Assembly (NCBI GenBank): GCA_031265685.1
Contig: JAISCI010000028.1
Span: forward strand, 31 to 64,030
From: Clostridiales bacterium
GTDB lineage: Bacteria > Bacillota > Clostridia > Lachnospirales > WRAX01
DNA: 64,000 nt
Direction of reading: 5' to 3'
Position 1 is the first letter of the stretch, and each line of letters starts with the position of its first letter. The notes under the pieces were generated by a model. It was not told where the DNA came from, did no database searches, and saw nothing but the letters and a program-made list of their open reading frames with translations. Positions 29 through 60,449 of this stretch are shown here, in pieces. The position numbers and the translations under genes were made by a program.

Positions 29-86
29 GTAGCGGCTGGCGGATCTTAATTATAATGGGTGGTGGAAATTTCAATTAGCAAATACA
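29..86. repeat. Copy 1 of a ~58-bp conserved sequence; copy 2 is at 30629-30686 in the same orientation
   Basis: The two copies share GTAGCGGyTGGCGGATCTTAATTATAATGGGyGGyGGA...TTTCArTTrrCAAATACA, roughly 85 percent identical by eye. Both lie at the 3' end of a minus-strand ORF. Confidence 0.6.
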
Positions 87-446
87 CGGCGCTGAATATA
101 CCAGTCCGCTGTCCCAAAACAGCGATTGATCGGCAGTCGAAACCACCACGCGATACTCATTGAGCGCTTCACCTTGCTGCTGTGAGTATTGCAAAGTGAC
201 CGTGACCGAAGCGTTGCGCAAAGTTTGATCGGTGGCAATGCCGACAATACGCCATTCCGGAGTGGTCAGGCACGAGAACACGGCCTTGGCGCTTGTCGCA
301 GCGACGCCCGACATGTCATAGGCCGTGACGTCGCACGCGTAATCTTTGCCGTTTGCGAGCGTCCCCGCCGGTATGGTGTGAGCTAAGCGCAGTGTGCTGG
401 TTGTATTGTCGTAAACCGTTCCGTTTGTAGCGGAATCGTAAATCAC
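75..446 (-). CDS. Beta-rich hypothetical protein, possibly a truncated phage tail-associated protein
   Basis: The tracked ORF starts at a GTG. The frame stays open upstream to 587, with AAAGGAGG at 556-563 but no canonical start codon. The T/S/V/Y-rich sequence (TISIRTITPFDAAYDYTVYFDYSGNQ...) looks like Ig/FN3-type phage structural repeats. The 3' end runs into the 58-bp repeat. Confidence 0.35.
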   Translation of the reverse strand: MIYDSATNGTVYDNTTSTLRLAHTIPAGTLANGKDYACDVTAYDMSGVAATSAKAVFSCLTTPEWRIVGIATDQTLRNASVTVTLQYSQQQGEALNEYRVVVSTADQSLFWDSGLVYSAPCIC

Positions 447-1166
447 CAGCCTGTTTTTGACAGATTGGTTGCCGGAATAGTCGAAATAGACTGTATAGTC
501 ATACGCCGCGTCGAACGGCGTTATTGTTCGGATGGAGATTGTTGCTATTGGGGAGCCTCCTTTCGGCGAGCTTGCTCTATGATTTGTTTAACAATTATTC
601 TATATAATTATTCAAGAAATATGTTCTTATTATCTTATTCGGAATAACCCCATTGCGCGGCGTGATTTGCCACGGAGCCTCATCACGCATCATTGCGCGC
701 AGTTTCCAACTACACTCAATGTTATAAAACTGACCTGATCACTCGTATGGCTTCTGCGCAAGAAAAACCATATCTTAAGAAAGACGTACCCAAGCACGAA
801 ATATTGCAAAATGCTCGGAATAGCCTGAATTATTTTATCAATTTCCACTAGTATTATCCCACATATTAGTGTTATCGTTGCCATTGAATGGCCTTGTTTC
901 TGATATGATACACCAAAATATTCCCAACGTCAACAAAAGTCACGCCTTCCCAACAACATACCGCCTGTTCCAATCATTTCCCGCAAACAGCACCAGCACG
1001 CTTTCATTGACGACAAACGTCTGCCCGGTGGCGCAAGAAACGGTGTAGATCGTCCCCTGCATATTGACGGAATATTTGCCCCGCCCAAAACCGCCGTCAC
1101 GCTTCCTTGCCGCGTCACATCGTACGGCAGCGACCGGAGGCGTTCGTTCTATCTTGATCCGCCAAG

Positions 1167-1252
1167 GAATTTTGCGTGAATCATGCAAAATTCATCCAAG
1201 CGAAAATGCTTCGATTCAAGCGAACTTCGCCCAAGTAAACTTCACTTGTTGG
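1167..1252. repeat. Hairpin-module repeat block (X/Y word family)
   Basis: GAATTTTGC-GTGAATCAT-GCAAAATTC is followed by the degenerate words CGAAAATGC, TTCGATTCAA and GCGAACTTC. Confidence 0.7.
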
Positions 1253-1336
1253 CGAGGAGAGCTTCTATAAGAAGCAGGGATACGCGTTCAATGAGGCGGA
1301 TCATCGGGAGTTAAACCGCTTGTTAACGACGGTTGC

Positions 1337-1459
1337 GGATTTTGCTTGGTTCGAAGCATTATCGCGTGACAGAATTTCGCATCGCATTATCGTTTGAACT
1401 ACACGATAATGCTTCGAATAACGCGAAATTCACCCAAGCGATAATGCGATGCAAAATCC
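1337..1459. repeat. Four-stem nested palindrome (X/Y word family)
   Basis: Left arm: GGATTTTGC-10-GCATTATCG-7-GAATTTCGC-3-GCATTATCG. Loop: 11 nt. Right arm: CGATAATGC-10-GCGAAATTC-7-CGATAATGC-3-GCAAAATCC. All four stem pairs are perfectly complementary. Confidence 0.85.
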
Positions 1460-1824
1460 ATAGGCCGGTTCATACTGTCTTATAATGACTGTGAGTTTGT
1501 TCGGGAATTGTACGATGGGTTTAATATGGAGCCTGTCTCGCGGTAAAATAATCTGACAAGCCGGTATGAAAATCGAGAAAATTATAAGGAGTTGATCGTT
1601 TGGAATTACTAATAGTCGATTATTTATAGTAATTATTAGCGTTATTTCGATTCTGTTTGTTGTGTAAAATTGTAACAAATTATATATAAAAACGTTCTAT
1701 GTGTGCAGTGATTTAACGTGCATGTAGAATGTTTTTTCGTTTGTCGGAGAACAAAAAAGTTGGTGTTTTAAGTGGAGATGTTTGAACGTCTTGTTGAACG
1801 CTTACACTGAACGTCAGCCACTTT

Positions 1825-1978
1825 GACCGACGTTTGATGTTGTCGAAGACAACATCTGAATTTTGCTTGAATGAATTTTGCATCGCATTATCGTTTGAAC
1901 GAATTTTGCCTAAAGCCGCAAAATTCTGTCACACGATAATGCTTCGATTCACACAAAATTCATCAAGCCATCTTCTTA
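1825..1978 (+). repeat. G-type palindromic element, copy G1 (end1 to end2)
   Basis: End1 is GACGTTTGATGTTGTCGAAGACAACATC, itself a 9-bp hairpin. The core is made of X/Y words. End2 is CATCAAGCCATCTTCTT. Copies with the same ends occur at 3166-3243 and 5318-5460 in the opposite orientation. Confidence 0.8.
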
Positions 1979-2485
1979 CTCCAAGCCGGGAAATCTCCGA
2001 TCGCCGTCAGAGCGTTCCAAGGTACAGACAGCCTGAGCGGCTATGCCCTCGGACCGTCCCGTGAAGCCCATGCCTTCCTCGGTGGACGCCTTTACGTTTA
2101 CGCGGCGCGTCATCGGGTCGATCCCGAGCGCCGCCGCCACGTTACGCTCCATTTGCGGTATAAACGGCGCAAGCCGGGGCTTCTCGGCGACTATGACCGC
2201 GTCGATGTTGCCGACGAAGTATCCCCGCGCGAAAATCATGCCCCACGCCCGGCGCAGAAGTTCCAGACTGTCTATACCGTCATACGCCGGGTCGTCGTCC
2301 GGGAAAAACCTGCCGATGTCCCCCAAACCCGCCGCGCCGAGAAGCGCGTCGATAACGGCGTGAACCAAAACGTCCGCGTCCGAATGTCCCAGAAGGCCCC
2401 TTTCAAACTCAATCTCAACCCCGCCGAGCACAAGACGGCGCCCTTCCGCCAATCTGTGCGCGTCATAGCCTATGCCTGTACTCAT
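1976..2485 (-). CDS. ispF: 2-C-methyl-D-erythritol 2,4-cyclodiphosphate synthase
   Basis: Translation from the internal ATG at 2485 gives MSTGIGYDAHRL...GHSDADVLVHAVIDALLGA, the typical IspF sequence. The upstream 30 codons of the tracked ORF look non-coding. The stop codon lies at the edge of element G1. Confidence 0.9.
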   Translation of the reverse strand: MSTGIGYDAHRLAEGRRLVLGGVEIEFERGLLGHSDADVLVHAVIDALLGAAGLGDIGRFFPDDDPAYDGIDSLELLRRAWGMIFARGYFVGNIDAVIVAEKPRLAPFIPQMERNVAAALGIDPMTRRVNVKASTEEGMGFTGRSEGIAAQAVCTLERSDGDRRFPGLE

Positions 2486-3165
2486 GTTGATTCCCCTCTC
2501 CAGACTGTCCCCGCTAAGGTGATTCCGCGTCGCATTACCGAGAAATTCTTCAGCCGAGTTTGAGTTTGAACACAACCGGCTTATTAACCGCGGCCGCCTT
2601 CTTGAGCGAAAGGCTCGCTGTTTGGGGACCCCGGGTTGGATGTCGGCGGAGTCGTCGCCGCGGTGATTTCATCTAAACGCGCCCGCCGGAAGAAACCGCT
2701 CTTCCGCTGAAACAACCGACGCGCTTTCGGACGTATCTCGTCGATTCTATCGGCGACCTCAAACGCAAAACCATCCGTGTGCTCGACCAAGTTTTCCTTG
2801 AATATCAGCGTGTTTTCGGTAAAACGCCGAAAGAGTTACCGCTGCAACTCGGCGGACCCGCCGAGTTCGAGGGCGTTTCCGTCGATGTCTGACGTAATTT
2901 CCGACCAAGCTGAGCCGCCAAAAACTCGATCAAGATGAAGCCCGCGCACTCTACCGCGCCGCTGAATCCTCTTCCAGCTCGTCCCTCTTCTTCTCAAAAT
3001 GTATCTCACACGCCCGCCCGCATTGTTATTATAACATATTTATCCGATTATTTCAAGCTTCGCCTGGCCTAAAGACAATCTTCGCACCCCTCCGGGCTGC
3101 CCCGCCAATCCCGGAGCAGTCCGGCAATCACCGTTTCAATCCGCTTCGGCGAGTAATCGGGCGTC

Positions 3166-3243
3166 AAGAAGATGGTTTGATGAATTTTGCGTGAATCGAA
3201 GCAAAATTCAGATGTTGTCTTCGACAACATCAAACGTCGGTCA
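3166..3243 (-). repeat. G-type palindromic element, short copy G2 (end2 to end1)
   Basis: AAGAAGATGGTTTGATGAATTTTGC-GTGAATCGAA-GCAAAATTCAGATGTTGTCTTCGACAACATCAAACGTCGGTC. This is the reverse complement of the G1 termini with a single X hairpin as core. Confidence 0.8.
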
Positions 3244-3523
3244 AAGGCGTCGCCGTAAAACGTCCTTATGAACAATAACCGACAGCAACCGCAGATTTTA
3301 GCAATACAGACATTCTACAACTTCCGCGGAATCGGATTTTCAGCGGCACGCGTACTTCTTACTCGAATAATCGGCAGCAAAGTTAGCTTAAACCCGCGCT
3401 TTGTTATTCGGGCGGGTGATTTTGGGGTTGACATTTACAAAATTACCTCATTCCGCCGATATTATGACGCTTAGCGGCTATAATTACCGGGGTTTTTGGA
3501 GCGGTTACGGGATAGACATAAAC

Positions 3524-3578
3524 AAAAAACCGGAAAGCGGAACAGAGGGCGGATTCGGGATCCGTCCTCTGTTTTCCG
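3524..3578 (-). terminator. Rho-independent terminator after the cotF-like pair
   Basis: A long imperfect hairpin (AACAGAGGGCGGAT-TCGG-GATCCGTCCTCTGTT, extended by CCGGAAAGCGG pairing) is followed on the minus strand by a T6 run. Confidence 0.6.
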
Positions 3579-3598
3579 TTTCTGTTCTCCGCTTTTCG

Positions 3599-3862
3599 TT
3601 ATACCGCGCAGGGCTGTTGCAGATTCGCCTTGATCTGGTTCGACTCGAGCATATCCGAAGACGGCGGTTGGACGTAATAGCCCTTTTCCGAAGCCAGCTT
3701 GTACAGATCATACTGGAACTTCTCGTCGCCGTCGCGCATCTGCTGAAAAGTCATGCGCAGATCCTGATCGTTCGTCTCGGCGATGTTCTTGGCGTAGGAC
3801 GCAAGCCCCGCCTTCACGCCCGAGAGTATGTCCATAACCATGTCGCGTTCGCTCATTTTCAT
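3599..3862 (-). CDS. Spore coat protein, CotF-like
   Basis: 87 aa: MKMSERDMVMDILSGVKAGLASYAKNIAETNDQDLR...EKFQYDLYKLASEKGYY. This resembles the Coat_F domain. Confidence 0.65.
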   Translation of the reverse strand: MKMSERDMVMDILSGVKAGLASYAKNIAETNDQDLRMTFQQMRDGDEKFQYDLYKLASEKGYYVQPPSSDMLESNQIKANLQQPCAV

Positions 3863-3866
3863 CCTC

Positions 3867-4049
3867 CTACAGCATGTCTACTAATTTCTGGGCGGCCTTT
3901 CCCGATTCCTGCGCCGCGCTCGTGAACATCCGGCGCACTTTCTCGTCCTGGCACCTGCCCGCGTATTCGTTCAGCTTACTCGTGGTCGTCTGATGCGCCA
4001 TAACGGTCTCGCGTATCGCGTTTAACTCAGTCTGGCTGTACGTGGCCAT
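3867..4049 (-). CDS. Small spore-coat-associated protein, partner of the CotF-like gene
   Basis: 60 aa: TELNAIRETVMAHQTTTSKLNEYAGRCQDEKVRRMF. It lies 4 nt upstream of the CotF-like gene, an arrangement typical of two-gene coat loci. Confidence 0.5.
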   Translation of the reverse strand: MATYSQTELNAIRETVMAHQTTTSKLNEYAGRCQDEKVRRMFTSAAQESGKAAQKLVDML

Positions 4050-4103
4050 AATAATCGCGTCTCCCTTCCGTTTGGATAGGATTATTTTTGCCCCGGCGCG
4101 CGC

Positions 4104-5087
4104 TCAATATACGTATTTATTGACGTCGTCGACCGTCACGCCGGGATGCAGCGCGATATTAAGCGCGTTGGCGATAATATTCGACAGCCGCTCGACGACC
4201 GCGTCCGCATCCTTCGGAGCGACGAACATGCTTCCGAGGTACGGTTCAAGCAGACGACTGATTATCGCGCTCTTCTCGCGGCGCTCCAGGTTCTCGAGCG
4301 TCTCAAAGAAATCCGCGCCCTCCGGCATCTCCGCCCGCATACTGGAAACGGTGAGATCCAGGGAGTCTGACACGAGCGTCGCGGCGTCGATAACCGTCGG
4401 CACTCCGACCGCCAGAACCTTCCGTCCGAGCGACTTCTCGGTCAGTTCGGCGCGGTAATTACCCATGCCGGAGCCGGGGGCCAGTCCCGTGTCGCTGATC
4501 TGGATTGTGGAATTGAGCCGCGAGGTATTCCTCGCCGCCAGCGCGTCCACGCAAATCACAACCGCCGGGTCGATCGCGTCAGCCACCCCCTTGATTGTGT
4601 CGGCCGTCTCGATGCCGGTGATTCCCATCACGCCCGGCGTTATAGCGGCCACCGGGCGCACTCTCCCGGCAAGTTCCTCCGGGACGGTATCCATGATGTG
4701 CCGGGTCACGAGCGCCTTTTTTATCACTTTGGGCCCGAGCGCGTCCGGGGTTACGCTCCAGTTGCCCAAACCGACGATCAGAACGGTATCGCCGCCGGAG
4801 AGCTTCGCGATCTTGGCGATCTGCCGCGCGAGAATCGCGGCGATTTCCTCGTGCTTATCGCGGTTGTTATCTTTAAGGGCGTCGGATTCGATAGTGACGT
4901 AACTACCTATCGGCTTGCCCATTTTAGCTGAGCCGACGTCGTTTTCGATCTCAATCCATGTAATCTTGATTCCGTCGTTTTCGCGGACATCGACGCCGAC
5001 GCCCGTTTCGCCCGACTCCGCCTTTCGTTCAGCGTTTTCGTTCAATATCTCGGCCGCTTCGACGGCCAGGTCGGTAATCGGTTTCAT
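4104..5087 (-). CDS. gpr: Germination protease (spore endopeptidase GPR)
   Basis: Translation from ATG 5087 (GGGAGGG RBS) gives MKPITDLAVEA...LIVGLGNWSVTPDALGP...VICVDALAARNTSRLNSTIQISDTGLAPGSG, the GPR family pattern. The upstream 109 codons of the tracked ORF translate repeat DNA. Confidence 0.9.
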   Translation of the reverse strand: MKPITDLAVEAAEILNENAERKAESGETGVGVDVRENDGIKITWIEIENDVGSAKMGKPIGSYVTIESDALKDNNRDKHEEIAAILARQIAKIAKLSGGDTVLIVGLGNWSVTPDALGPKVIKKALVTRHIMDTVPEELAGRVRPVAAITPGVMGITGIETADTIKGVADAIDPAVVICVDALAARNTSRLNSTIQISDTGLAPGSGMGNYRAELTEKSLGRKVLAVGVPTVIDAATLVSDSLDLTVSSMRAEMPEGADFFETLENLERREKSAIISRLLEPYLGSMFVAPKDADAVVERLSNIIANALNIALHPGVTVDDVNKYVY

Positions 5088-5269
5088 AGCGCCCTCCCGA
5101 AGGTATTTGTCATTAAAGTAGCTTTTCCCGCGGGAAGGGATTGTATGTGAAATATGTATACGCTGACCTGGGCGTGTTTGAAAACTAGCCCTGACTCCCG
5201 GCCAAGCGGCGACCGCCGCGACTGAAAACGCTTCCCCGCTGTAATTTGTTAACCGACAAATCTGTCGAT

Positions 5270-5514
5270 TAAACAAAAACGCCGTGTACTCCGAGAGTAC
5301 GCAAGTTTTTGGCTGACGATGAAGAAGATGGCTTGATGAATTTTGCGTGACAGAATTTTGCGTGAATCGAAGCATTATCGTGTGGTTCAAACGATAATGC
5401 GATGCAAAATTCATTCAAGCAAAATTCAGATGTTGTATTCCACAACATCAAACGTCGATCAACGACGGGAAATCAGCCGAAAAGACGCCGATTCCATCTA
5501 TGAATACAGGTTCT
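5270..5514. repeat. F-type element, copy F', carrying a nested G-type insertion
   Basis: It shares AACGCCGyGTACTCmGAGAGTACGCAAGTTTTTGGCTGACG and TCAACGACGGGAAATCAGCCGAAAAGACGyCGATTCCATCTATGAATACAGGTTCT with 61680-61780. Those two halves are separated here by about 143 bp. Confidence 0.8.
5318..5460 (-). repeat. G-type palindromic element, copy G3, inserted inside F'
   Basis: GATGAAGAAGATGGCTTGAT...X-6-X-10-Y loop Y-3-X-6-X...CAGATGTTGTATTCCACAACATCAAACGTCG. It is near-identical to the reverse complement of G1. Confidence 0.8.
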
Positions 5515-5758
5515 GAATAGCTGGTCTCAATTATATTGAGCGGTCGATTTTTCGATTATAACGCGCGCCCGTTTTCAGTGATTACAAGAATTCTTTTGCG
5601 GGGGCGGAACTTCTCGCTGATTTTTTGCGTGCGGGTGTTTTTTTCATTTATATTGCCGCCGGGCTCCGAAAGGCGTTCAAGCGAATTTCCATCACGCGAA
5701 AACATGAAAATCGTGTCCGCGCCTGGGAACGGGATAGGCATAAAATCAAATCCCCGCA

Positions 5759-5786
5759 TTGACTTTCACGCGTAAAATGTTATAAT
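5759..5786 (+). promoter_or_regulatory. SigA-type promoter upstream of the ibrA-like gene
   Basis: TTGACT, a 16-nt spacer, then TATAAT preceded by TGT (extended -10). It lies about 27 nt upstream of the start codon. Confidence 0.6.
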
Positions 5787-5812
5787 AAGCTGGAGAATGT
5801 CGGAAGGGGGTG

Positions 5813-7132
5813 ATGTTATTGGCTAAAGTTTACACTGATCAAAATGTGTTCAACGCCTTCATGGACAGAATGGAGTATATATTTTCCAAGTTTGATCACG
5901 TCGTGGTCGCTTTTTCCGGAGGCAAGGATTCCGGCCTGATGCTGGAACTGGTTAACTTATATTACGCGAGGCGCCGCCCCGACGCCAAAGTCTCCGTATA
6001 CCACATCGACTATGAGGGCAATTATCAGTATACCATCGACTACGTATCGCGCTGCATGGGTAAATATCCTTATTTTGACTACTATCACCTTTGTATGCCG
6101 GTTTCGGCTTCATGCGGCGTATCCATGTATCAATCCACATGGATGCCCTGGAATCCGGACGAAAAGGACATCTGGCTCAAGGAACGCCCGCCGGGCGCGA
6201 TAACGCTGGAAAACCACGGCTTCGACTTCTTCAAGGTCGGTATGTCGGACTATGTTTTTCAGACAAAATTCGGCAAGTGGCTTCACAAACGCCGCGGTGC
6301 TAAAAGAACAGCCGTCCTTGTCGGCATACGCGCGCAGGAAAGCCTCAACCGCTATCACGCAGTGACCCGCGACAGCGCCTACCGGATGTTCGGCAAGATC
6401 GCCTACAGCACGCGCGTTTACACGGGTATCTACAATTTTTATCCGCTGTACGACTGGCTGGTCGAGGACATATGGACGGCCAACGCTAAGTTCGGGTTCG
6501 ATTACAATAAACTATACGACCTGTATTATTTGGCGGGCATACCGGTCGTGGAGATGCGCGTAGCCAACCCCTTCCATGAATGCGGAGTGGAAGCGCTCAA
6601 GCTGTTCCGCGCGATCGAGCCGAATACATGGAGCCGGCTGGTCGGACGCGTGAACGGCGCGAATTTCGGCGCGATTTACGGAGGCACGAAAGCGGTCGGC
6701 TACAAGGATATTTCCCTTCCGAAGGGCCACACGTGGAAAACCTACACGGAATTCCTCCTGAACACGCTGCCGTCGCGCACGCGGGAAATATATCGGCGCA
6801 AGTTTGAGACGTCTCTGCGTTACTGGCTTGATAAAGGCGGCGCTCTGCCCGTCAGGGTTGTGAACGAGCTTCGCAAGACGGATATTGTTTTCGAGCGGTT
6901 GGGCAAACCTACCGGAAAACGGAAATACAGGAGCGACCACGAGGTGGTCCGTTTCGCCGAATACCCCGACAGCGTCGATCTGCGGAACTTCCGGTCGCTG
7001 CCCAGTTATAAACGGATGTGCGTGACGATTATGAAGAACGACACGTCATGCCGTTATATGGGGTTCAGCCAGACCAAAGACGAACTGCAGAAAGGAAAGG
7101 AAGCGATGGCCGTATGGGAGAGCCTTATGTAA
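5813..7132 (+). CDS. PAPS-reductase-family ATP pyrophosphatase with a DUF3440-like C-terminal region (IbrA-like)
   Basis: The N-terminus carries the PP-loop VVVAFSGGKDSGLMLELV. The protein is about 440 aa, and its downstream ParB-like partner overlaps it by 19 nt. The exact start is uncertain (GTG 5810, ATG 5813 or TTG 5819). Confidence 0.75.
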   Translation: MLLAKVYTDQNVFNAFMDRMEYIFSKFDHVVVAFSGGKDSGLMLELVNLYYARRRPDAKVSVYHIDYEGNYQYTIDYVSRCMGKYPYFDYYHLCMPVSASCGVSMYQSTWMPWNPDEKDIWLKERPPGAITLENHGFDFFKVGMSDYVFQTKFGKWLHKRRGAKRTAVLVGIRAQESLNRYHAVTRDSAYRMFGKIAYSTRVYTGIYNFYPLYDWLVEDIWTANAKFGFDYNKLYDLYYLAGIPVVEMRVANPFHECGVEALKLFRAIEPNTWSRLVGRVNGANFGAIYGGTKAVGYKDISLPKGHTWKTYTEFLLNTLPSRTREIYRRKFETSLRYWLDKGGALPVRVVNELRKTDIVFERLGKPTGKRKYRSDHEVVRFAEYPDSVDLRNFRSLPSYKRMCVTIMKNDTSCRYMGFSQTKDELQKGKEAMAVWESLM

Positions 7133-7656
7133 GCCCGGTATACAGCGTCATACGCGTTCCGATCGGGAAAATCCAGGCGAACGCGCACAACCCGAACCGC
7201 GTGCCGCCGCCGGAGATGAGGCTGCTCATCAAGTCCATTCTGGAGGACGGCTACACAATGCCTATCGTCTGCTATTATCTGGCGGACGCCGACCGCTATG
7301 AGATTGTCGATGGGTTTCACCGGTATCAGGCCATGAGGCTTTGTCCCGAGATTGCCGAGCGGGAGGGAGAATGCCTGCCCGTGTCCGTGATTGACAAGCC
7401 GCTGACGAGCCGCATAGCCAGCACGATCCGTCATAACCGCGCGCGCGGCGTTCATTCCATTGATCTGATGGTGGACATCGTGGCGAAGCTCGCCGAGGCT
7501 GGGCGGAGCGACGCGTGGATTATGGACAATATCGGCATGGATTCCGACGAGCTGCTGCGGCTCAAGCAGATAAGCGGGCTGGCCTCGCTGTTCGCGGACA
7601 GGGAGTTTTCGCCGGCCTGGGAAAGCGACGCCGTCGCCGGGACAGTCGGAACCTAG
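7114..7656 (+). CDS. ParB-like nuclease domain protein (IbrB-like)
   Basis: Translation from ATG 7114 gives MGEPYVSPVYSVIRVPIGKIQANAHNPNRV...EIVDGFHRYQAM...IRHNRARG, which contains the ParB/Srx-type motifs. It overlaps the 3' end of the upstream gene. Confidence 0.75.
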   Translation: MGEPYVSPVYSVIRVPIGKIQANAHNPNRVPPPEMRLLIKSILEDGYTMPIVCYYLADADRYEIVDGFHRYQAMRLCPEIAEREGECLPVSVIDKPLTSRIASTIRHNRARGVHSIDLMVDIVAKLAEAGRSDAWIMDNIGMDSDELLRLKQISGLASLFADREFSPAWESDAVAGTVGT

Positions 7657-7746
7657 AGCCGAACACTTGGGGCGCCGCCCCGCACCCCGCCCGCTTTCCA
7701 TCCCGAAAGCGGGGCAAAGAACTTTCATTTATGAAGGAGCCGTTAT

Positions 7747-8280
7747 ATGGAAATTAAACTGATTGAGCAAAAGCCGCTGACTACTTTAGCTGTGCGTGAA
7801 ACCGCCTCCGGCGCGGAATTGCCGCGGGTTATCAGCGCGGGCTTCGCGCGGGTGTACGATTATATCGTCAAAACCGGCGCTCAAATCATCGACGCGCCCT
7901 ACGCCGCCTATATAAACATGGCCGGCGACAGCTGGGATATTGAAATCGGATTCCCCGTCGCTCGGGAAACGCCGGAAAACGGTTCGGAAGTTTGCGTGAA
8001 CCAGGCAAACTCCCCAGACACGAACCATCCAGAACAAATGTCAACCTTGATTCCGAAACAGCATGAGATTTTCCCGAGCGTAATCCCGGCGGGACGAGCC
8101 GCCGCCGCGCTTCACAAGGGTTCATACGCCGGTCTGGAAGCGGTTTACGGCGAGCTGTTCAAATGGGTCGGGGATAACGGCCTTAAACAGTCCGGAGCGC
8201 CGTATGACCGCTATCTCAACGACCCGTCGGTTACGCCGGAGGACGAGCTGCTGACTAACGTCGTTATACCGGTAATCTAA
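7747..8280 (+). CDS. GyrI-like small-molecule-binding domain protein with an internal ~26-aa insertion
   Basis: MEIKLIEQKPLTTLAVRE...EIGFPV...IPAGRAAAALHKGSY...YDRYLNDP...VVIPV matches the GyrI-like / AraC effector-binding fold pattern. A GGAG RBS is present. Confidence 0.7.
   Translation: MEIKLIEQKPLTTLAVRETASGAELPRVISAGFARVYDYIVKTGAQIIDAPYAAYINMAGDSWDIEIGFPVARETPENGSEVCVNQANSPDTNHPEQMSTLIPKQHEIFPSVIPAGRAAAALHKGSYAGLEAVYGELFKWVGDNGLKQSGAPYDRYLNDPSVTPEDELLTNVVIPVI
7987..8073. repeat. Hairpin-module sequence embedded in-frame in the GyrI-like CDS
   Basis: 7987-8013 (GAAGTTTGCGTGAACCAGGCAAACTCC) matches 19451-19477 (GAATTTTGCGTGAACCAAGCAAAATTC) at 23 of 27 positions, and the G/C changes fall at paired positions. 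The rest of the insert is degenerate. Confidence 0.6.
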
Positions 8281-8468
8281 TTCCACTTAGAATTTGCGCC
8301 GGATATTTTTTCGAGCTTGCGTGTCCGAATTTTGCTTAGTTCACACAAAATTCTCATCGGAATTTTGCTTGGTTCGCACAAAATTCTCATCGGAATTTTG
8401 CTTGGTTCACGCAAAATTCTTAGGGGCGGCCGAAAATATTCGGCGTCCTTTAGAGTGGAATTAGTATA
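8278..8468 (+). mobile_element. TIR-bounded non-coding element, copy A (MITE-like, no ORF)
   Basis: Left end: (ATC)TAATTCCACTTAGAATTTGCGCCGGATATTTTTT. Right end: CCGAAAATATTCGGCGTCCTTTAGAGTGGAATTAGTAT. Homologous ends occur at 59764-59931 and, inverted, at 18181-18415. It lies between two convergent genes. Confidence 0.75.
8327..8420 (+). repeat. Tandem array of a 33-bp hairpin unit, about 2.9 copies, inside element A
   Basis: The unit GAATTTTGCTTrGTTCrCrCAAAATTCTCATCG starts at 8327, 8360 and 8393. Confidence 0.9.
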
Positions 8469-8482
8469 AATAGGCTGCGCGG

Positions 8483-9649
8483 TTATCTCGCCAGTTCCAG
8501 TATTTGGGCGACATCGGCCCGCGTAAGCGGCGTGCTGGCTCCGATCAGACCGTTTTCCGGCATTTGCGTCATATCGGCGAGTTTGCCCAGCGAGTCCGTC
8601 GGTATGCCCGCCTGCGCGAAGCTGACCGGCATACCGAGACAGCGGAAGAATCCCTTGGTCGCCGCGATACATTCTCTCGCGGCGCCGGCGCCTTCAAGCC
8701 CGAACACACGCCGGCCGTACCGCGCGAACCGGGCTTCGTCGTTTTTGTAAACATATTGCATCCAGGCGGGCATTATCACCGAAAGCGACACTCCGTGCGG
8801 CGTGTCGTACAGCGCGCTCAGCTCGTTGGCTATTATATGCGTAGCCCAGTCCTGCGCCCGGCCGACGCCTAGCGTGTCGTTGTGGGCGATCGCAGCCGTC
8901 CACATGGCTTGGGCGCGCAGCTCGTAGCTGTCCAAATTTTCCAGAAGTTTCGGCCCGAACGACGCCACCGCGGCCATGGCGCCCTCCGCCATATGGTCTA
9001 TAATCCCGAATTCGGCGTCGTTCGTAAAATACCGCTCCGCGATGTGGCTGAACATATCCACAAGCCCGTTCGCCGTTACGGAAGCAGGCAGGCTCCGCGT
9101 AATATCGGGGTTCATTAAAGCCAGCTCCGGCTGTATGAACGGACTGCTCGCCAGCCGTTTTTCTGACGTTTCGGCGTTATTGATGACCATGACGCCGCTT
9201 GACTCGCTGCCGCTGGCCGGATTGGTCAGCAGCGCCGCCACCGGCAGCGCCGCGCGTATCGCGGCCCTGCCGGTAAAGAAGTCCCACACGTCTCCGTCAT
9301 ACGGGACTCCCGCGGCGACCGCCTTCGTATGGTCTATGACCGCGCCGCCGCCGATAGCCAGAAGTCCTCGCGATCCGGCGGCGCGGACCGCCTCGATACA
9401 CTGGTATACGCGGGAAAGGCGCGGGTTCGGCTCCGTTCCGCACATAAACTCGCCCCAGCGGACGCCCGCCGCGTCCAGCGCGTTCTTGACGCCGTCGAGC
9501 AGACCGCCGTCGTAAAGGAACCGGCTTCCGTTGTGGCAGATCGTCACCGCGGTAAGGCCTTTTGCCGCGAGTTCCGCGCCCGCGCGGGCGTCGGCGTGTT
9601 TCCCGAATATAAACCGCGTTTTAAGCGAAAACTCAAAATCCCTCATCAT
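8483..9649 (-). CDS. Iron-containing alcohol dehydrogenase (butanol-dehydrogenase-like)
   Basis: MRDFEFSLKTRFIFGKHA...LAIGGGAVIDHTKAVA...HGVSLSVIMPAWM matches the Fe-ADH family pattern. The start is taken at ATG 9649 or 9646, just after the upstream stop codon. Confidence 0.85.
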   Translation of the reverse strand: MMRDFEFSLKTRFIFGKHADARAGAELAAKGLTAVTICHNGSRFLYDGGLLDGVKNALDAAGVRWGEFMCGTEPNPRLSRVYQCIEAVRAAGSRGLLAIGGGAVIDHTKAVAAGVPYDGDVWDFFTGRAAIRAALPVAALLTNPASGSESSGVMVINNAETSEKRLASSPFIQPELALMNPDITRSLPASVTANGLVDMFSHIAERYFTNDAEFGIIDHMAEGAMAAVASFGPKLLENLDSYELRAQAMWTAAIAHNDTLGVGRAQDWATHIIANELSALYDTPHGVSLSVIMPAWMQYVYKNDEARFARYGRRVFGLEGAGAARECIAATKGFFRCLGMPVSFAQAGIPTDSLGKLADMTQMPENGLIGASTPLTRADVAQILELAR

Positions 9650-11044: not shown

Positions 11045-11157
11045 CATACTAATCCCATTTAGATTTATGGATAAAAATTTTTCAAGCGTCAGCGCGTTCG
11101 CGCGGCTTTAAGCGCGAACTGAAAAATTTTTATCCGTCTTTTGAAATGGGATTAGTA
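11045..11157 (+). mobile_element. TIR-bounded element, sister subfamily, copy D
   Basis: ATACTAATCCCATTTAGATTTATGGATAAAAATTTTT ... AAAAATTTTTATCCGTCTTTTGAAATGGGATTAGTAT. The 15-bp termini are perfect inverted repeats. The right arm supplies the last codons of the EamA ORF. Confidence 0.75.
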
Positions 11158-12089: not shown

Positions 12090-12124
12090 TGTATAATTGG
12101 TTTTTATATTTACGCGCCCCCCTT

Positions 12125-12174
12125 AGACCAATCCCATTTTCAAGGACGGATAAAAATCTAAATGGGATTAGTAT
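12125..12174 (-). mobile_element. Minimal copy E of the D-type element, termini only, inverted relative to D
   Basis: AGACCAATCCCATTTTCAAGGACGGATAAAAATCTAAATGGGATTAGTAT equals the reverse complements of the D right arm and D left arm joined at GGATAAAAAT. Confidence 0.7.
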
Positions 12175-18084: not shown

Positions 18085-18180
18085 GATTAGTCCTCCCATT
18101 GACATGATTGATACTAATCTCAATTATCCCCTGATTGAGATCAGCGCAATGCATCCCGCGCGGGGATACAATCGTCTGTC

Positions 18181-18415
18181 ATACTAATTCCATTCTATAA
18201 GGACGCCAAATATTTTTTCGGTCCGCTCCTGGAATTGTGCATCGCATTATCGAGTGACAGAAGTTTGCGCGAATCGAAGCATTATCGTGTGGTTCAAACG
18301 ATAATGCGATGCAAACTTCGTCCAAGCGATAACGCTTCGAACCAAGCAAAATTCAGAGCCGCGCGGACGCACGCGCTTAAAGAATATCCGGCACAAATCT
18401 GAATGGAATTAGTAT
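18181..18415 (-). mobile_element. TIR-bounded non-coding element, copy C (inverted relative to A and B) with a four-stem X/Y core
   Basis: ATACTAATTCCATTCTATAAGGACGCCAAATATTTTTTCGG ... AAGAATATCCGGCACAAATCTGAATGGAATTAGTAT. The core at 18232-18354 is a nested palindrome. Confidence 0.8.
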
Positions 18416-18421
18416 CAGCGA

Positions 18422-19422: not shown

Positions 19423-19512
19423 GAATTTTGCATCGCATTATCGCTTGATGGAATTTTGCGTGAACCAAGCAAAATTCGTCCACGCGATAATGCTTCGAAC
19501 CGCGCAAAATTC
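19423..19512. repeat. Three-stem nested palindrome (X/Y word family)
   Basis: GAATTTTGC-ATC-GCATTATCG-7-GAATTTTGC-GTGAACCAA-GCAAAATTC-7-CGATAATGC-TTCGAACCGC-GCAAAATTC. Confidence 0.85.
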
Positions 19513-30628: not shown

Positions 30629-30686
30629 GTAGCGGTTGGCGGATCTTAATTATAATGGGCGGCGGATTTTTCAGTTGACAAATACA
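30629..30686. repeat. Copy 2 of the ~58-bp conserved sequence (see 29-86)
   Basis: GTAGCGGTTGGCGGATCTTAATTATAATGGGCGGCGGATTTTTCAGTTGACAAATACA, located 22 nt beyond the stop codon of the FrhB-like gene. Confidence 0.6.
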
Positions 30687-31897: not shown

Positions 31898-33143
31898 CAG
31901 CCAACGCCCTTTCGAGATAATCGGCGGAGAACCGGCGCAACTCGCCCAGCGCGGCGTTGGACGCCGAGAAATCCACTTCCGCGGCGCCCGGCGTCAGCCA
32001 CTTAGACCAATCCCCGGACAGATCCGCCATGCGGTCCATCAGCCCGGTCTGCGACAGCAGCGAGGACGCCCGCTCGTTACGGTAACACGCGACCGCATAG
32101 AACGGGATATTGAAGTTGACGGCGAAAGCCGTGCCATGGAACGAATTGGTCACGACGAACCGCGCGCGGGCCAACAGCTCCACGAACCGCCTGGGATCGG
32201 CCGTGGATTCGTAGCGCGTGGATGGTGAAAGATCCGCCAGAAACCGCTGGTCGATGATAACGGGTGTAAGGCCCAGTATCTTCGCCAGCTTTTTGGCGAA
32301 GCCGTATACGCGCACACGGTTCGACAGCGCGTACACGACAAGCGTATCATCTCGGGATTTCGCCTGATTCACGCAAAATTCCCTTTCGTCCTCAATACCG
32401 AGCGAGGAGAGCCATTCCCCTCGCGTGAGCATCAGCGTCGGGTCAAGCGCGCAGACTGCCTCAATCCCCAGCGCCTCGCGGACTTTCCCGACATGCTGCG
32501 CTTCCCGCACGGAAACGGCGGAGTACGCCCGCAAATAACCCGCGATCCTCTCATTGACGGCTCGGTCGGCGAATTTATAGTTACCGAACGAAGCGGAATA
32601 CGCGACGCGCCTGACACCCTCGGGTAGGAATCCAAGGAAATAAACCGGCGTCACGCCGAAATACATCGGATTCCATATTTGGTCGCTGCCGCTTACCGCC
32701 GCGTCATAACCTGAAAATCCCTCGGCGACGCTTTCCTCCGCATACTCCTGTGTATAGGCTATGTACGTATCCCAAAACCTACGGTAATTCGCGATAAGGC
32801 GACGGCGCTTTCCGTAGTTGACAATATCGGAAACCATCCCGTAGACGCGGTTCATCAGTTCCGGCAACAGCTCGGACTTCTCGAGCTTAGCCGCTCCCCC
32901 GCCGATCTTTTTGCGCGAAAATACGGATCTCACTGTAGAAAAAGCTATCACTATGAATCCGACCCGCACCGGCCTAACGGTAGCGGCGACCATGCCGTGC
33001 CGGTAATCCAAGCACTTTACGTCAAAGCGGCGGCTCAGGCACGCGAACAGCGCGAACTCCTGCAGACTGCCGCCGTAGTTGACGTTACGGCTGAACGTTA
33101 CTAACAGTATCTTCCTCGCGCCCGGCTTCGGATTGTCTGACAA
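31890..33143 (-). CDS. Polysaccharide pyruvyl transferase family protein (CsaB/WcaK-like)
   Basis: ILLVTFSRNVNYGGSLQEFAL...GSDQIWNP...VVTNSFHGTAFAVNFNIPF matches the PS_pyruv_trans pattern. The start is TTG and overlaps the upstream gene. Confidence 0.8.
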   Translation of the reverse strand: MSDNPKPGARKILLVTFSRNVNYGGSLQEFALFACLSRRFDVKCLDYRHGMVAATVRPVRVGFIVIAFSTVRSVFSRKKIGGGAAKLEKSELLPELMNRVYGMVSDIVNYGKRRRLIANYRRFWDTYIAYTQEYAEESVAEGFSGYDAAVSGSDQIWNPMYFGVTPVYFLGFLPEGVRRVAYSASFGNYKFADRAVNERIAGYLRAYSAVSVREAQHVGKVREALGIEAVCALDPTLMLTRGEWLSSLGIEDEREFCVNQAKSRDDTLVVYALSNRVRVYGFAKKLAKILGLTPVIIDQRFLADLSPSTRYESTADPRRFVELLARARFVVTNSFHGTAFAVNFNIPFYAVACYRNERASSLLSQTGLMDRMADLSGDWSKWLTPGAAEVDFSASNAALGELRRFSADYLERALADD

Positions 33144-42331: not shown

Positions 42332-42345
42332 GCCGTTTCCCTCCC

Positions 42346-44267: not shown

Positions 44268-44373
44268 GAATTTTGCGTGAATTGAAGCATTATCGTGTGG
44301 TTTGAACACGTGAAGCGCCTCAACCCGAGGGCTTACGAACATGACAGAATTTTGCTTGATTCACGCAAAATTC
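44268..44373. repeat. X/Y-word repeat block (partly degenerate)
   Basis: GAATTTTGC-GTGAATTGAA-GCATTATCG-TGTGGTTTGAAC ... GAATTTTGC-TTGATTCAC-GCAAAATTC. Confidence 0.75.
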
Positions 44374-44383
44374 GCTCACCATT

Positions 44384-44653
44384 GTGGCGCACAGGCTGGC
44401 CGCTATCGCCGTGAGTGAGGCCAGGGCGGCGCTGGACGGAGCCGGCGCGCTGAATGCGCCAATTCTACCCGGCGTCTATTCGCTGTCGCCGGTTGCGTCT
44501 GCCCGGCGTGTTCATCCGACGGAAAAGCCGCTGATGAATTTTGCGGGTTCAGGCAAAATTCAGGCGCTTATGCGCGAACTGGTAAAGATTGCTGGCAACC
44601 GCTTTGTACGCGTACGAGGTTTTGACGATTCAAACGCGCCAGAGCGTTGTTGA
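44384..44653 (+). pseudogene. Fragment of an N4/N6 DNA methyltransferase (HPTxKP motif) carrying a hairpin-module insertion
   Basis: ...ARRVHPTEKPL[MNFAGSGKIQ]ALMRELVKIAGN.... The bracketed residues are encoded by GAATTTTGC-GGGTTCAG-GCAAAATTC (44536-44561). The flanking catalytic regions are absent or degenerate. Confidence 0.5.
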
Positions 44654-44692
44654 AGGGGTTCGCAAAATAAGTTGAGGGGGTTCGCAAAATAA
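44649..44692 (+). repeat. Tandem 22-bp direct repeat, two copies
   Basis: GTTGAAGGGGTTCGCAAAATAA followed by GTTGAGGGGGTTCGCAAAATAA. Confidence 0.9.
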
Positions 44693-44862
44693 AAGGGAAG
44701 AAATACCCGGTAGGCAAGATCGAATCGGCGCTTGATGAGTTTGGTTATTTTGGCAAAGTATTTTCTGGGGCATAAAATGCGACTTTATTTATTTTGCGGG
44801 AGGCAACGAAATGGCGACTAAGAGCGTTATGAAAATCGTTACAGTGCGGAGTGAACGCGCCA

Positions 44863-44952
44863 TGAATTTTCGCGGGTTCGAAGCATTATCGCTTGGACGA
44901 ATTTTGCTTGGATCCGCAAAATTCCATCACGCGATAATGCGATGCGAAAATT
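44863..44952. repeat. Three-stem nested palindrome (X/Y word family)
   Basis: GAATTTTCGC-GGGTTCGAA-GCATTATCG-7-GAATTTTGC-TTGGATCC-GCAAAATTC-7-CGATAATGC-GAT-GCGAAAATTG. Confidence 0.85.
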
Positions 44953-59748: not shown

Positions 59749-59763
59749 TTCGTCGTCTCCTTC

Positions 59764-59931
59764 ATACTAACGCCACTTAGATTTGCGCCGAATATTTTTT
59801 TGAGCTTGCGTGTCCGCGCGGATCTGAATTTTGCCTGGAAGAATTTTTCTTGATCACGCAACATTCTATCGCGCAAAATTCCAGGCGCGGACCGAAAAAA
59901 TATTCGGCGTCCTTTAGAGTGGAATTAGTAT
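59764..59931 (+). mobile_element. TIR-bounded non-coding element, copy B
   Basis: ATACTAACGCCACTTAGATTTGCGCCGAATATTTTTTTGAGCTTGCGTGTCCG ... GACCGAAAAAATATTCGGCGTCCTTTAGAGTGGAATTAGTAT, with an internal X hairpin at 59826-59881. It lies between two co-directional genes. Confidence 0.8.
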
Positions 59932-60449
59932 CAGATGTCGGCGGGGCGGTAGATCCCGTCGCCGTATACTGCGATTATGGAAGCGTCAACTATATCGCCG
60001 CTGATCGTCAGCGCCGCGTAGGTTGGCGCGGGGAAACCTCTCGGCCGGGACAGGCTGCCCGGATTGACCGTCAGGAGACCGCCGCCGCGCTCGATCACCG
60101 GGAAATGCGTATGACCGAAGAGACAGACGTCCGCGCCGCGCTCCAAGGCGGCGTAATACAGCCGTGTCGTGTCGCCCGCCGATACGCCGTACCGATGTCC
60201 GTGCGTCATAAAAACGACATGCCCGTCCGCCGGGATGGCAAGCCAGTCCCGATACGCCGGATCGCTCCCGTCACAGTTGCCGCGAACGGCGAACACCTCC
60301 GACCCCGGCGCGGCGGACGCCGCCGCCAGCGAATCCGGCGCGCAGTCCCCCAAGTGCAGAATCATATCGAACCCGCCCCGCGCGGCGCGGATTATCTTCA
60401 CCAGCGACGACGTTTCGCGGTGCGTGTCCGATACCACGAGAATTCTCAC
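59931..60449 (-). CDS. YfcE/MJ0936-family metallophosphoesterase
   Basis: The start is GTG. MRILVVSDTHRE...LHLGDC...GNCD...HGH...GHTH. Confidence 0.85.
   Translation of the reverse strand: MRILVVSDTHRETSSLVKIIRAARGGFDMILHLGDCAPDSLAAASAAPGSEVFAVRGNCDGSDPAYRDWLAIPADGHVVFMTHGHRYGVSAGDTTRLYYAALERGADVCLFGHTHFPVIERGGGLLTVNPGSLSRPRGFPAPTYAALTISGDIVDASIIAVYGDGIYRPADI

What the first reader, a model, noticed from the sequence alone, without database searches (positions are those of the whole stretch)
1337..1459. Fixed 3-nt versus 10-nt linker asymmetry gives strand-specific bulges in every multi-stem copy
Between an X word and a Y word the linker is either 3 nt (ATC, complement GAT) or about 10 nt (GTGAATCGAA, TTGGTTCGAA or GCGAATCGAA, and their complements). 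In every multi-stem copy, a 3-nt linker on one arm faces a 10-nt linker on the other:
- 1337-1459 reads X-10-Y-7-X-3-Y / Y-10-X-7-Y-3-X.
- 18232-18354 reads X-3-Y-7-X-10-Y / Y-3-X-7-Y-10-X.
- 5338-5427, 19423-19512 and 44863-44952 follow the same rule.

Folded, this produces conserved bulges on defined strands. The long linker contains ATC, so pairing leaves bulges of 4 nt and 3 nt.

Strand-asymmetric extrahelical bases are the features read on folded single strands by integron integrases at attC sites and by HUH/Y1 enzymes at REP or IS200/IS605 ends. By analogy, these elements may be substrates of a single-strand-specific enzyme. They could also be structured RNA modules.
Basis: partly seen in the sequence, partly recalled or inferred. 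Interest (0 to 1): 0.55.

Follow-up and report, generated by a model that had tools for sequence, protein, structure and literature searches.

The report
Nested mini-hairpin repeats with off-centre joints
An uncultured Clostridiales genome carries a previously uncatalogued family of tiny palindromic DNA repeats that sit inside one another like onion layers, and the fixed 3-versus-10-base asymmetry most likely marks where one hairpin sits in another's loop rather than being a separately evolved recognition feature.

Summary
All 8 complete X/Y junction pairs in the window (X = GAATTTTGC, Y = GCATTATCG) put a 3-nt linker (ATC/GAT) opposite a 9-10-nt linker (KYGRWTCGAA). Both strands fold into long hairpins (z -3.7 to -6.7).

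Two details fail:
- Only 3 of 8 long linkers contain ATC, so the usual feature is a 3x10 internal loop, not 4+3 bulges.
- The asymmetry is fixed relative to the element, not to a genome strand.

The elements are modular. A 27-nt X hairpin and a 29-nt Y hairpin nest in each other's loops, at the centre of two larger repeats whose cores differ between copies. For every junction type, the two linkers minus 3 nt equal the uninterrupted loop length of the outer hairpin (10, 11, 9).

Two near-identical host copies differ by a clean 29-nt indel, a 3-nt tail plus an X hairpin. It has no duplication and no flanking repeat. One X hairpin lies in an in-frame insertion in a gene, and another lies on a prophage-like contig.

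Best reading: a new REP/BIME-like family of nested hairpin modules, with the asymmetry a by-product of off-centre nesting. No transposase or integrase is in the window and no outside copies were found. The enzyme, and a function for the bulges, remain untested.

The parts
1337..1459 (.). 123-nt four-stem element, X-10-Y-7-X-3-Y-11-y-10-x-7-y-3-x (the reported copy)
   Evidence: DNA fold -31.8/-32.8 kcal/mol, z about -6.
18232..18354 (.). Second 123-nt four-stem element, in opposite orientation to 1337. It has the same 10/3 layout but its 7-nt linker pair is inverted. It lies at the centre of host repeat F2.
   Evidence: (I1, 82%).
5338..5427 (.). 90-nt element X-6-X-10-Y-11-y-3-x-6-x, the core of host repeat F1 copy B
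19423..19512 (.). 90-nt element X-3-Y-7-X-9-x-7-y-10-x
44864..44950 (.). Three-stem element X*-9-Y-7-X-8-x-7-y-3-x*, with a compensated 1-bp insertion in the outer stem
1858..1961 (.). 104-nt element X-6-X-3-Y-7-X-8-x-7-y-10-x, the core of host repeat F1 copy C. It has one unmatched X on the left arm.
1901..1929 (+). 29-nt unit (X hairpin + TGT; on the other strand ACA + X hairpin). It is present in F1 copy C and cleanly absent from copy B, where the Y loop is intact (TGTG|GTTCAAA).
   Evidence: I2 ends at 1900, I23 starts at 1930; prefix 32 + insert 29 + suffix 78, with no duplication and no flanking direct repeat.
3182..3209 (.). X hairpin whose loop is the 10-nt long linker (GTGAATCGAA), the core of F1 copy A. 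It is either the unfilled state or a deletion between AAGCA repeats.
1167..1229 (.). X hairpin followed by a right arm only (x-7-y*-10-x*): a truncated multi-stem copy
   Evidence: D4, 83% to 19450-19512.
44268..44307 (+). Truncated copy: left arm X-10-Y plus the Y loop, with the right arm missing
   Evidence: D2, 93% to 5353-5392.
8327..8419 (.). Three tandem X hairpins (33-nt period), the core of host repeat F2
   Evidence: (D1).
59826..59881 (.). Nested X-in-X element (X-6-X-8-x-6-x), the core of host repeat F2
44347..44373 (.). Solitary X hairpin
44536..44561 (.). Solitary X hairpin (8-nt loop)
32355..32381 (.). Solitary, degraded X hairpin (7 of 9 pairs)
7984..8064 (+). 81-nt in-frame insertion (27 aa) in a GyrI-like gene. 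It begins TCG + X hairpin (7987-8013; 23/27 identical to the hairpin at 19451).
3166..3246 (+). Host repeat F1, copy A. Conserved flanks: AAGAAGATGGYTTGAT ... AGATGTTGTCTTCGACAACATCAAACGTCGGTCAAAG.
   Evidence: (I5, I11).
5322..5462 (+). Host repeat F1, copy B
   Evidence: (I2).
1821..1977 (-). Host repeat F1, copy C
   Evidence: (I2, I5, I11).
8270..8470 (+). Host repeat F2 (about 200-nt palindrome with ATACTAATTCCA...TGGAATTAGTAT ends), copy with core XxXxXx
   Evidence: (D11, D13, D18).
59754..59934 (+). Host repeat F2, copy with core XXxx
   Evidence: (I9, I15).
18180..18418 (-). Host repeat F2, copy with the 123-nt core
   Evidence: (I9, I15).

Best explanation
These are members of a lineage-specific family of small palindromic repeat modules, REP/BIME-like in kind. 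The family is built from two hairpin units:
- X: GAATTTTGC, an 8-10-nt loop KTGRWYCAM, then GCAAAATTC.
- Y: GCATTATCG, the loop TGTGGTTCAAA, then CGATAATGC.

The units lie nested in each other's apical loops and in the centres of two larger palindromic repeats (F1, F2). This gives onion-like multi-stem hairpins.

Each nested unit carries a 3-nt unpaired tail and sits at a fixed, off-centre place in the outer loop. The fixed linker lengths follow from this:
- X in a Y loop: 4+3 and 7.
- X in an X loop: 3+3 and 6.
- Y in an X-type loop: 3 and 10, or equivalently 7+3 and 3.

The 3-versus-10 asymmetry is therefore the outer X loop displaced to one arm plus the tail. Every copy of the junction module inherits or regenerates it.

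Shown: the grammar, the linker arithmetic, one clean 29-nt presence/absence of an X unit, variable cores in conserved host repeats, and compensated stem changes.

Inferred: that units spread by site-specific insertion without target duplication into single-stranded loops, driven in trans by an enzyme not present in the window; and that slippage and inversion between the repeated words reshuffle the layers afterwards.
For: Grammar:
- Only five spacings occur: X-x loop 8-10 nt, Y-y loop 11 nt, Y-X 7 nt, X-X 6 nt, X-Y 3 or 10 nt.

Linker arithmetic:
- For 14 of 15 junctions (the exception is 44864, 9+3 = 12, explained by a 1-bp shift in its X stem), left + right linker minus 3 equals the uninterrupted loop of the outer hairpin: 13-3 = 10, 14-3 = 11, 12-3 = 9.
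- The apparently symmetric 7/7 and 6/6 linkers hide the same asymmetry. In 7 of 7 pairs one linker is NKTG + ACA/ATG/ATA and the other, reverse-complemented, is NKTGRAC-like. Removing 'tail + inner hairpin' rebuilds a Y-type or X-type loop, exactly (11/11) in the 1873 unit.

Presence/absence:
- F1 copies B and C, 96-97% identical in their flanks, differ by exactly ACA + X hairpin (29 nt). There is no duplication and no flanking direct repeat.
- Copies of the same host repeat carry different cores. F1 has Xx, XXYyxx and XXYXxyx. F2 has XxXxXx, XXxx and XYXYyxyx.
- A diverged F2-like palindrome at 11046-11158 has no X core.

Evidence against a single master copy:
- The two 123-nt copies share the 10/3 layout, but their 7-nt linker pair is inverted.

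Evidence for spread:
- An X hairpin opens an 81-nt in-frame insertion that is absent from the 9 closest homologues aligned; nearly all of the ~120 listed homologues are 149-157 aa against 177 aa here.
- Another X hairpin, with a compensated C-G to T-A change, lies on a prophage-like contig from a metagenome that also holds this organism's proteins.

Stem pairing:
- X stems show double-sided compensated changes at 3 pairs (4 cells). Only 1 of 500 shuffles reaches this. There is also one compensated 1-bp indel.
Against: - Everything rests on about 20 copies in one 64-kb window plus one outside hairpin. No genome-wide set and no sister strain could be obtained.
- The direction of the 29-nt indel (insertion or precise excision) is not known.
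- The only uninterrupted X hairpin with a 10-nt loop (3182) could be a deletion between AAGCA direct repeats rather than an unfilled site. The boundaries of the Y unit are therefore ambiguous (10|0 or 7|3).
- All eight short linkers are GAT. This fits one founding X/Y junction as well as it fits repeated site-specific insertion.
- The orientation of X units relative to tail and loop is not fully consistent (5 of 6 nested units, with exceptions among solitary copies).
- No candidate mobilising enzyme lies in the window.
- Nesting seen only in loops could be survivorship, since insertions into stems would destroy the recognisable hairpin.
Confidence: 0.5

Rival explanations
1. There was one ancestral composite palindrome (or very few) that already contained the X-10-Y...y-3-x junction. 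It was duplicated around the genome. The copies then diverged by slipped-strand deletion or duplication between the repeated words, and by inversion between the inverted arms. On this reading no module is mobile on its own, and the asymmetry is simply inherited.
For: - All eight junction pairs are one module type, with invariant GAT and near-invariant TCGAA.
- Several indels are bounded by direct repeats. The 15-nt indel between F1 copies B and C is flanked by the 13-nt repeat GAATTTTGCGTGA. The 76-nt difference between copies A and C is flanked by AAGCA.
- The inverted 7-nt linker pair in 18232 relative to 1337 can be produced by two inversions between inverted arms.
- Truncated half-copies exist at 1167-1229 and 44268-44307.
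Against: - The 29-nt X-unit indel has no flanking repeat.
- Several arrangements are not sub-strings of the 123-nt form: X-6-X shells, tandem XxXxXx, and the 8-nt-loop X inside a Y loop.
- X hairpins occur alone in unrelated contexts, inside a gene and on a prophage-like contig.
- The linker arithmetic would be a coincidence.
Confidence: 0.2
2. The elements are functional structured modules kept by selection. They could act as RNA (stem-loops in untranslated regions that stabilise mRNA or regulate it). They could also act as DNA sites for a nucleoid or regulatory protein, as BIMEs bind IHF and gyrase. On this reading the asymmetric internal loops and the G.A mismatch are required parts of the structure.
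For: - X stems show compensated changes.
- Linker cores (GAT, TCGAA) and the post-stem mismatch are as conserved as the stems.
- Several copies lie 15-130 nt after stop codons.
- The L132 copy starts about 9 nt after a TTGACG-17-TATAAT promoter-like site, so it would form the 5' end of a transcript or an operator.
- Five of six transition mismatches would be G.U on the minus strand (reading).
Against: - No Rfam family matches, even at E <= 1.
- Copies lie in every intergenic context (convergent, divergent, co-directional, long gene-poor stretches) and in both orientations, 4:4.
- Module content varies widely at homologous positions of host repeats. That is hard to reconcile with one defined structure-function.
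- There is no T-run after the hairpins.
- Relatives at 62-74% protein identity lack the elements at the syntenic locus.
Confidence: 0.15
3. One reading: the displaced-loop bulges and the mismatches are themselves the strand-discriminating marks. They would be read on folded single strands by a dedicated recombinase, as in integron attC sites or HUH/Y1 substrates such as REP or IS200/IS605 ends.
For: - Bulges and mismatches are invariant across copies.
- The 29-nt indel leaves no target duplication, as with IS200/IS605-type 'peel and paste'.
- TnpA-REP needs the stem mismatch for binding and cleavage (PMC3333891).
Against: - No GTAG/CGTC tag and no attC R/L cores at the ends.
- No integrase or Y1 transposase in 64 kb.
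- Both orientations occur within one element, so either strand presents both bulge polarities.
- The asymmetry is already explained by the nesting geometry.
Confidence: 0.1

Closest known systems
REP / BIME / REPIN elements of Proteobacteria (with RAYT / TnpA-REP)
   Same: - Short (20-40 nt) imperfect palindromes at high density in intergenic DNA.
- Assembled into mosaics from a few word types, joined by linkers of fixed classes.
- Conserved stem mismatches.
- Copy content varies between loci (PMC3333891, PMC2817692, PMC3116915).
   Different: - Here the units are nested in each other's loops rather than alternating in tandem.
- There is no GTAG or CGTC end tag.
- No RAYT gene is in the window.
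- The host is a spore-forming Clostridiales MAG, and the sequences are unrelated.
Very small mobile dispersed repeats (SDRs) of cyanobacteria (Elhai et al. 2008, Genome Res 18:1484; reference seen, content recalled from memory)
   Same: Units of roughly 20-30 nt, palindromic, found inserted within one another and within other repeats. No known transposase.
   Different: Different phylum and sequences. The paper could not be read here, so the comparison is a lead, not a test.
Rickettsia palindromic elements (RPEs) and prokaryotic MITEs (review PMC10969869; PMC3733652)
   Same: Palindromic non-autonomous repeats that can lie in frame inside protein-coding genes, as with the 81-nt insertion in the GyrI-like gene here.
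   Different: - RPEs are 100-150 bp and CGTC-tagged.
- MITEs have terminal inverted repeats plus target-site duplications.
- The one clean indel here has no duplication.
IS200/IS605 ends and integron attC sites
   Same: Folded single-strand hairpins with unpaired bases. IS200/IS605 inserts without target duplication.
   Different: - No distinct left and right end hairpins.
- No TnpA, TnpB or IntI in the window.
- No attC core sites.
- No cassette array.

Membership tests
REP/BIME (RAYT-associated) | 20-40-nt imperfect palindrome, many copies, mostly extragenic | tested here: met
   13 X hairpins (26-28 nt) and 3 innermost Y hairpins (29 nt) in 64 kb. All but one are intergenic.
REP/BIME (RAYT-associated) | GTAG (or CGTC) tetranucleotide tag at one end of the palindrome | tested here: not met
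   No GTAG, CTAC, CGTC or GACG within 8 nt outside or 4 nt inside either end of 15 elements.
REP/BIME (RAYT-associated) | Cognate RAYT (Y1/HUH) gene, usually flanked by the repeats | tested here: inconclusive
   No Y1 transposase family hit among about 60 ORFs of the window. The rest of the genome could not be fetched.
REP/BIME (RAYT-associated) | BIME layout: units in alternating orientation in tandem, separated by linker classes | tested here: not met
   Units are nested (XYXYyxyx, XXxx) or in direct tandem (XxXxXx). Linker classes do exist.
Integron attC site | R''/L''...L'/R' boxes with RYYYAAC and GTTRRRY cores at the ends | tested here: not met
   Neither core was found at the ends of any of the 15 elements.
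Integron attC site | Array of promoterless cassettes next to an intI gene | tested here: not met
   The elements are scattered among housekeeping genes (groEL, gpr, ispF, pgm). No integrase was found.
MITE | Terminal inverted repeats plus a target-site duplication | tested here: not met
   The stems could count as inverted repeats. The one clean filled/empty comparison shows no duplication: 32 + 29 + 78 nt against 32 + 78 nt.
IS200/IS605-derived element (PATE) | Different left- and right-end hairpins, insertion 3' of a fixed tetra- or pentanucleotide, tnpA/tnpB in the genome | tested here: inconclusive
   There is a single hairpin type per unit. Nested X units follow KTG (7 of 7 nested junctions), but solitary copies vary. 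No tnpA or tnpB lies in the window.
Known structured RNA family (Rfam 15) | Match to a curated covariance model | tested here: not met
   No match at gathering thresholds over the whole window, and none at E <= 1 over 1000-8600.
CRISPR array | Direct repeats separated by unique spacers of similar length | tested here: not met
   The only tandem array (8327-8419) has a 33-nt period with 6-nt identical spacers.

The most novel reading that the evidence does not exclude
X and Y are roughly 30-nt 'hairpin plus 3-nt tail' units that are mobile in their own right. An unidentified enzyme of this Clostridiales lineage, specific for single-stranded DNA, would insert them (and perhaps precisely excise them) without target duplication into the single-stranded apical loops of resident hairpins. 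The conserved G.A mismatch and the displaced-loop bulges would tell the enzyme which strand and which layer to act on. This would be a Firmicute counterpart of REPIN/RAYT systems with a nesting mode of growth.
Probability: 0.2. Interest if true: 0.7.

Novelty: new variant of a known kind. Interest (0 to 1): 0.4.

Why it matters
How the smallest bacterial repeats (REPs and similar) multiply is still unsettled. This family has an unusually legible grammar:
- Two words.
- Fixed linker arithmetic.
- A clean 29-nt filled/empty pair.
- Cores that differ between copies of the same host repeat.

With the full genome or the sequencing reads, insertion sites, unit boundaries and orientation rules could be read off directly, and a candidate enzyme could be sought.

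Practical points:
- The repeats break short-read assemblies. The Logan contigs of the same run end inside them.
- They generate spurious ORF calls.
- In at least one case they add 27 residues to a protein.

If the family is only inherited debris, it is an ordinary lineage-specific repeat.

Tried and rejected
- The genome-contig scan used a pattern that was too degenerate.
- The metagenome scan with the 19-mer X-3-Y junction gave 6 chance hits and no clustered words.
- The viral scan gave 3 chance hits.
- blastn of the element against plasmids and phages found nothing.
- Syntenic loci of the nearest relatives (GntR 74% and 62% identical) carry no X/Y words.
- Attempts to extend beyond the window through exact-protein look-ups returned only 1-2-kb Logan contigs that end in the repeats.
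- Cluster look-ups yielded one extra contig, L132.
- Rejected readings: integron attC (no cores, no intI), CRISPR (no spacers), intrinsic terminators (no T-run; the only terminator-like hit is the small F1 hairpin, and its orientations are inconsistent).
- Considered and left open: X as an operator or 5' stem-loop, based on one promoter-adjacent copy on L132.
- The 51 nt that follow the X hairpin in the GyrI-like insertion match nothing else in the window.

Full report
**Source and setting**

The window is a housekeeping region: groES/groEL, gpr spore protease, ispF, phosphoglycerate mutase, an ECF transporter and a sporulation-type sigma factor. It comes from an uncultured spore-forming 'Clostridiales bacterium' MAG with about 58% G+C in its genes.

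The organism has no close relative in the protein collection. Its GroEL has no partner at 90% identity or above. The best GntR homologues are 74% and 62% identical.

**Checking the observation**

I parsed the window with X = GAATTTTGC and Y = GCATTATCG (lower case = reverse complement). It also shows the same rule at 5338-5427, 19423-19512, 44864-44950 and 1858-1961.

- All eight complete X/Y junction pairs put GAT/ATC opposite a 10-nt linker (once 9-nt) of the form KYGRWTCGAA.
- The words are strongly enriched: 16 against 1.0 expected for Y, and 60 against 20.4 for X with one mismatch.
- Both strands of all six copies fold into one long interrupted hairpin, z -3.7 to -6.7.

Three corrections are needed:
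- Only 3 of 8 long linkers contain ATC; 5 have TTC. The general feature is therefore a 3x10 internal loop, and the 4+3 bulge form appears in only some folds.
- 1337 and 18232 are the same 123-nt element type in opposite orientations (I1).
- The eight pairs are one module in two orientations, four on each strand. Both orientations occur inside each 123-nt copy. 'Strand-specific' therefore holds only relative to the module.

**The grammar**

Only a few spacings occur: X-x loop 8-10 nt (KTGRWYCAM), Y-y loop 11 nt (TGTGGTTCAAA), Y-X 7 nt, X-X 6 nt, and X-Y 3 or 10 nt.

For 14 of the 15 junctions the two linkers together, minus 3 nt, equal the uninterrupted loop of the outer hairpin. The values are 13-3 = 10, 14-3 = 11 and 12-3 = 9. 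The exception is 44864, whose long linker is 9 nt because of the 1-bp shift in its X stem.

The apparently symmetric 7/7 and 6/6 linkers hide the same kind of asymmetry. In 7 of 7 pairs one linker is NKTG plus ACA/ATG/ATA. The other, reverse-complemented, is NKTGRAC-like. Deleting 'three bases plus the inner hairpin' rebuilds a normal loop. In the 1873 unit this rebuilds exactly TGTGGTTCAAA.

Each stem is followed by a conserved G.A mismatch (T.C on the other strand) and then a TG/CA pair. This holds in X loops, Y loops and linkers alike (reading).

**Evidence that layers are gained or lost as units**

The X/Y arrays are the cores of two larger repeats.
- F1 has three copies, with flanks AAGAAGATGGYTTGAT and AGATGTTGTCTTCGACAACATCAAACGTCGGTCAAAG. 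Their cores are Xx, XXYyxx and XXYXxyx.
- F2 is a palindrome of about 200 nt with ATACTAATTCCA...TGGAATTAGTAT ends. Its cores are XxXxXx, XXxx and the 123-nt form. A diverged F2-like palindrome has no X core.

F1 copies B and C are 96-97% identical on both sides of the Y loop. They differ there by exactly ACAGAATTTTGCGGCTTTAGGCAAAATTC, which is 29 nt. There is no duplication and no flanking direct repeat.

Other differences do have direct repeats at their edges. A 15-nt indel sits between 13-nt repeats, and a 76-nt difference sits between AAGCA repeats. Slippage therefore also acts.

The two 123-nt copies share the 10/3 layout, but their 7-nt linker pair is inverted. They are not plain copies of one master.

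**X hairpins outside the repeats**

A GyrI-like protein (7747-8280) is 177 aa, whereas nearly all of its ~120 listed homologues are 149-157 aa. In an alignment with the nine closest, the extra 27 residues (81 nt, 7984-8064) begin with TCG plus an X hairpin. That hairpin is 23/27 identical to the one at 19451.

A prophage-like contig from a JGI sample that also holds this organism's proteins carries GAATTTTGT-gtggatcaa-ACAAAATTC. It has a compensated stem change and starts 9 nt after a TTGACG-17-TATAAT site.

**Pairing is maintained**

Among nine distinct X stem pairs, three base pairs show changes on both sides (four cells). Only 1 of 500 shuffles reaches this, and none of the slid controls do. 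The outer stem of 44864 has a compensated 1-bp insertion.

This could come from selection on the hairpin. It could also come from copying of hairpins as units after a change, or from correction of one arm against the other.

**Interpretation**

The most economical account is that X and Y are small hairpin modules, each with a 3-nt tail, that lie at fixed off-centre places in the loops of resident hairpins.
- The long linker resembles a whole X-type loop. GTGAATCGAA compares with GTGAAYCAA, and TTGGTTCGAA with TTGGTTCGC/AC.
- The short linker is the tail.

The 3-versus-10 asymmetry then needs no separate selective explanation.

Several points are not shown:
- Whether units insert or excise.
- Which enzyme acts.
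- Where exactly the Y unit begins. It could be 10|0 or 7|3. The only uninterrupted 10-nt-loop hairpin, at 3182, may itself be a deletion product.

A single founding X/Y junction that was later duplicated and reshuffled by slippage and inversion remains a serious rival. A functional RNA or DNA-binding role is neither supported nor excluded.

**Comparison with known systems**

The family works most like REP/BIME/REPIN mosaics, and like the very small nested repeats described in cyanobacteria. It fails the REP end-tag test (no GTAG or CGTC). Its units are nested rather than alternating, and there is no RAYT in the 64 kb.

It is not an attC site, a MITE with target duplications, a CRISPR array or any Rfam family.

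TnpA-REP requires the stem mismatch of REP for binding and cleavage (PMC3333891).

**Limits**

My one genome-collection scan was wasted on a degenerate pattern. The metagenome, viral, plasmid and phage searches found no copies. The source contig could not be extended. All inferences therefore rest on about 20 copies in one window plus one outside hairpin.

Noticed in passing
window 7984-8064 (gene 7747-8280, + strand): The GyrI-like protein carries a 27-aa in-frame insertion absent from the nine closest homologues aligned; nearly all ~120 listed homologues are 149-157 aa. The inserted DNA starts with an X hairpin. The other 51 nt match nothing else in the window.
   Followed up: partly
window 3166-3246, 5322-5462, 1821-1977: Host repeat F1: conserved flanks, including a small hairpin GATGTTGTCTTCGACAACATC, around a variable X/Y core. 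The small hairpin followed by TGAATTTT scores as terminator-like, but its orientations relative to genes are inconsistent.
   Followed up: partly
window 8270-8470, 59754-59934, 18180-18418; related 11046-11158 and 12115-12177: Host repeat F2: a palindrome of about 200 nt with ends ATACTAATTCCA...TGGAATTAGTAT. Its ends often abut ribosome-binding sites and start codons (for example TTAGTATGAAGGAG-N8-ATG of the phosphoglycerate mutase gene). The copy at 11046-11158 has a G+C-rich centre instead of X hairpins.
   Followed up: partly
all X and Y stems, e.g. window 5381-5391, 19460-19468, 44356-44364: A purine-purine G.A mismatch (T.C on the other strand), followed by a TG/CA pair, sits immediately inside almost every stem, whatever the layer. 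The base next to the Y stem covaries (T-A or C-G).
   Followed up: partly
L132 11862-11936 (JGI sample 3300042643, contig Ga0466704_326001): Prophage-like contig (tape-measure protein, DarT plus a macro-domain protein). It carries one X hairpin with a compensated stem change, 9 nt downstream of a TTGACG-17-TATAAT promoter-like site. It also encodes a 315-aa protein in the same 90%-identity cluster as the 123-aa ORF at window 75-446.
   Followed up: partly
window 29-86, 30629-30686, 5510-5567; 5456-5514 and 61722-61780; 61610-61651: Further short repeat families lie upstream of genes: a 58-nt repeat at 86% and a 59-nt repeat at 97% identity. They are unrelated to X/Y. Intergenic DNA here is a patchwork of repeat modules.
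   Followed up: no
window 447-1975 and 43585-46422: Two long gene-poor, lower-G+C stretches (about 45-48%) hold several X/Y copies, truncated copies and tiny ORFs. They may be decayed mobile DNA.
   Followed up: no
window 44384-44653 and 44811-45080: ORFs that run straight through X/Y elements are annotated as hypothetical proteins in public records (MDR1209106 and a JGI call). They are probably spurious.
   Followed up: no
window 5810-7132 and about 7018-7560: A PAPS-reductase/DUF3440 gene is followed by a gene with a weak ParB_N hit (seen on L131). From memory this resembles the IbrA/IbrB-type pair.
   Followed up: no
window 41317-41575 and 42693-42954: Two tandem paralogous segments (71-73% nucleotide identity) in the HtrA-like protease region. 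My ORF call on the + strand at 40991-42349 is probably wrong.
   Followed up: no
L118, L131 (Logan contigs of SRR14710922): Short-read contigs of the same organism end inside X/Y elements, so the repeats break assemblies.
   Followed up: no
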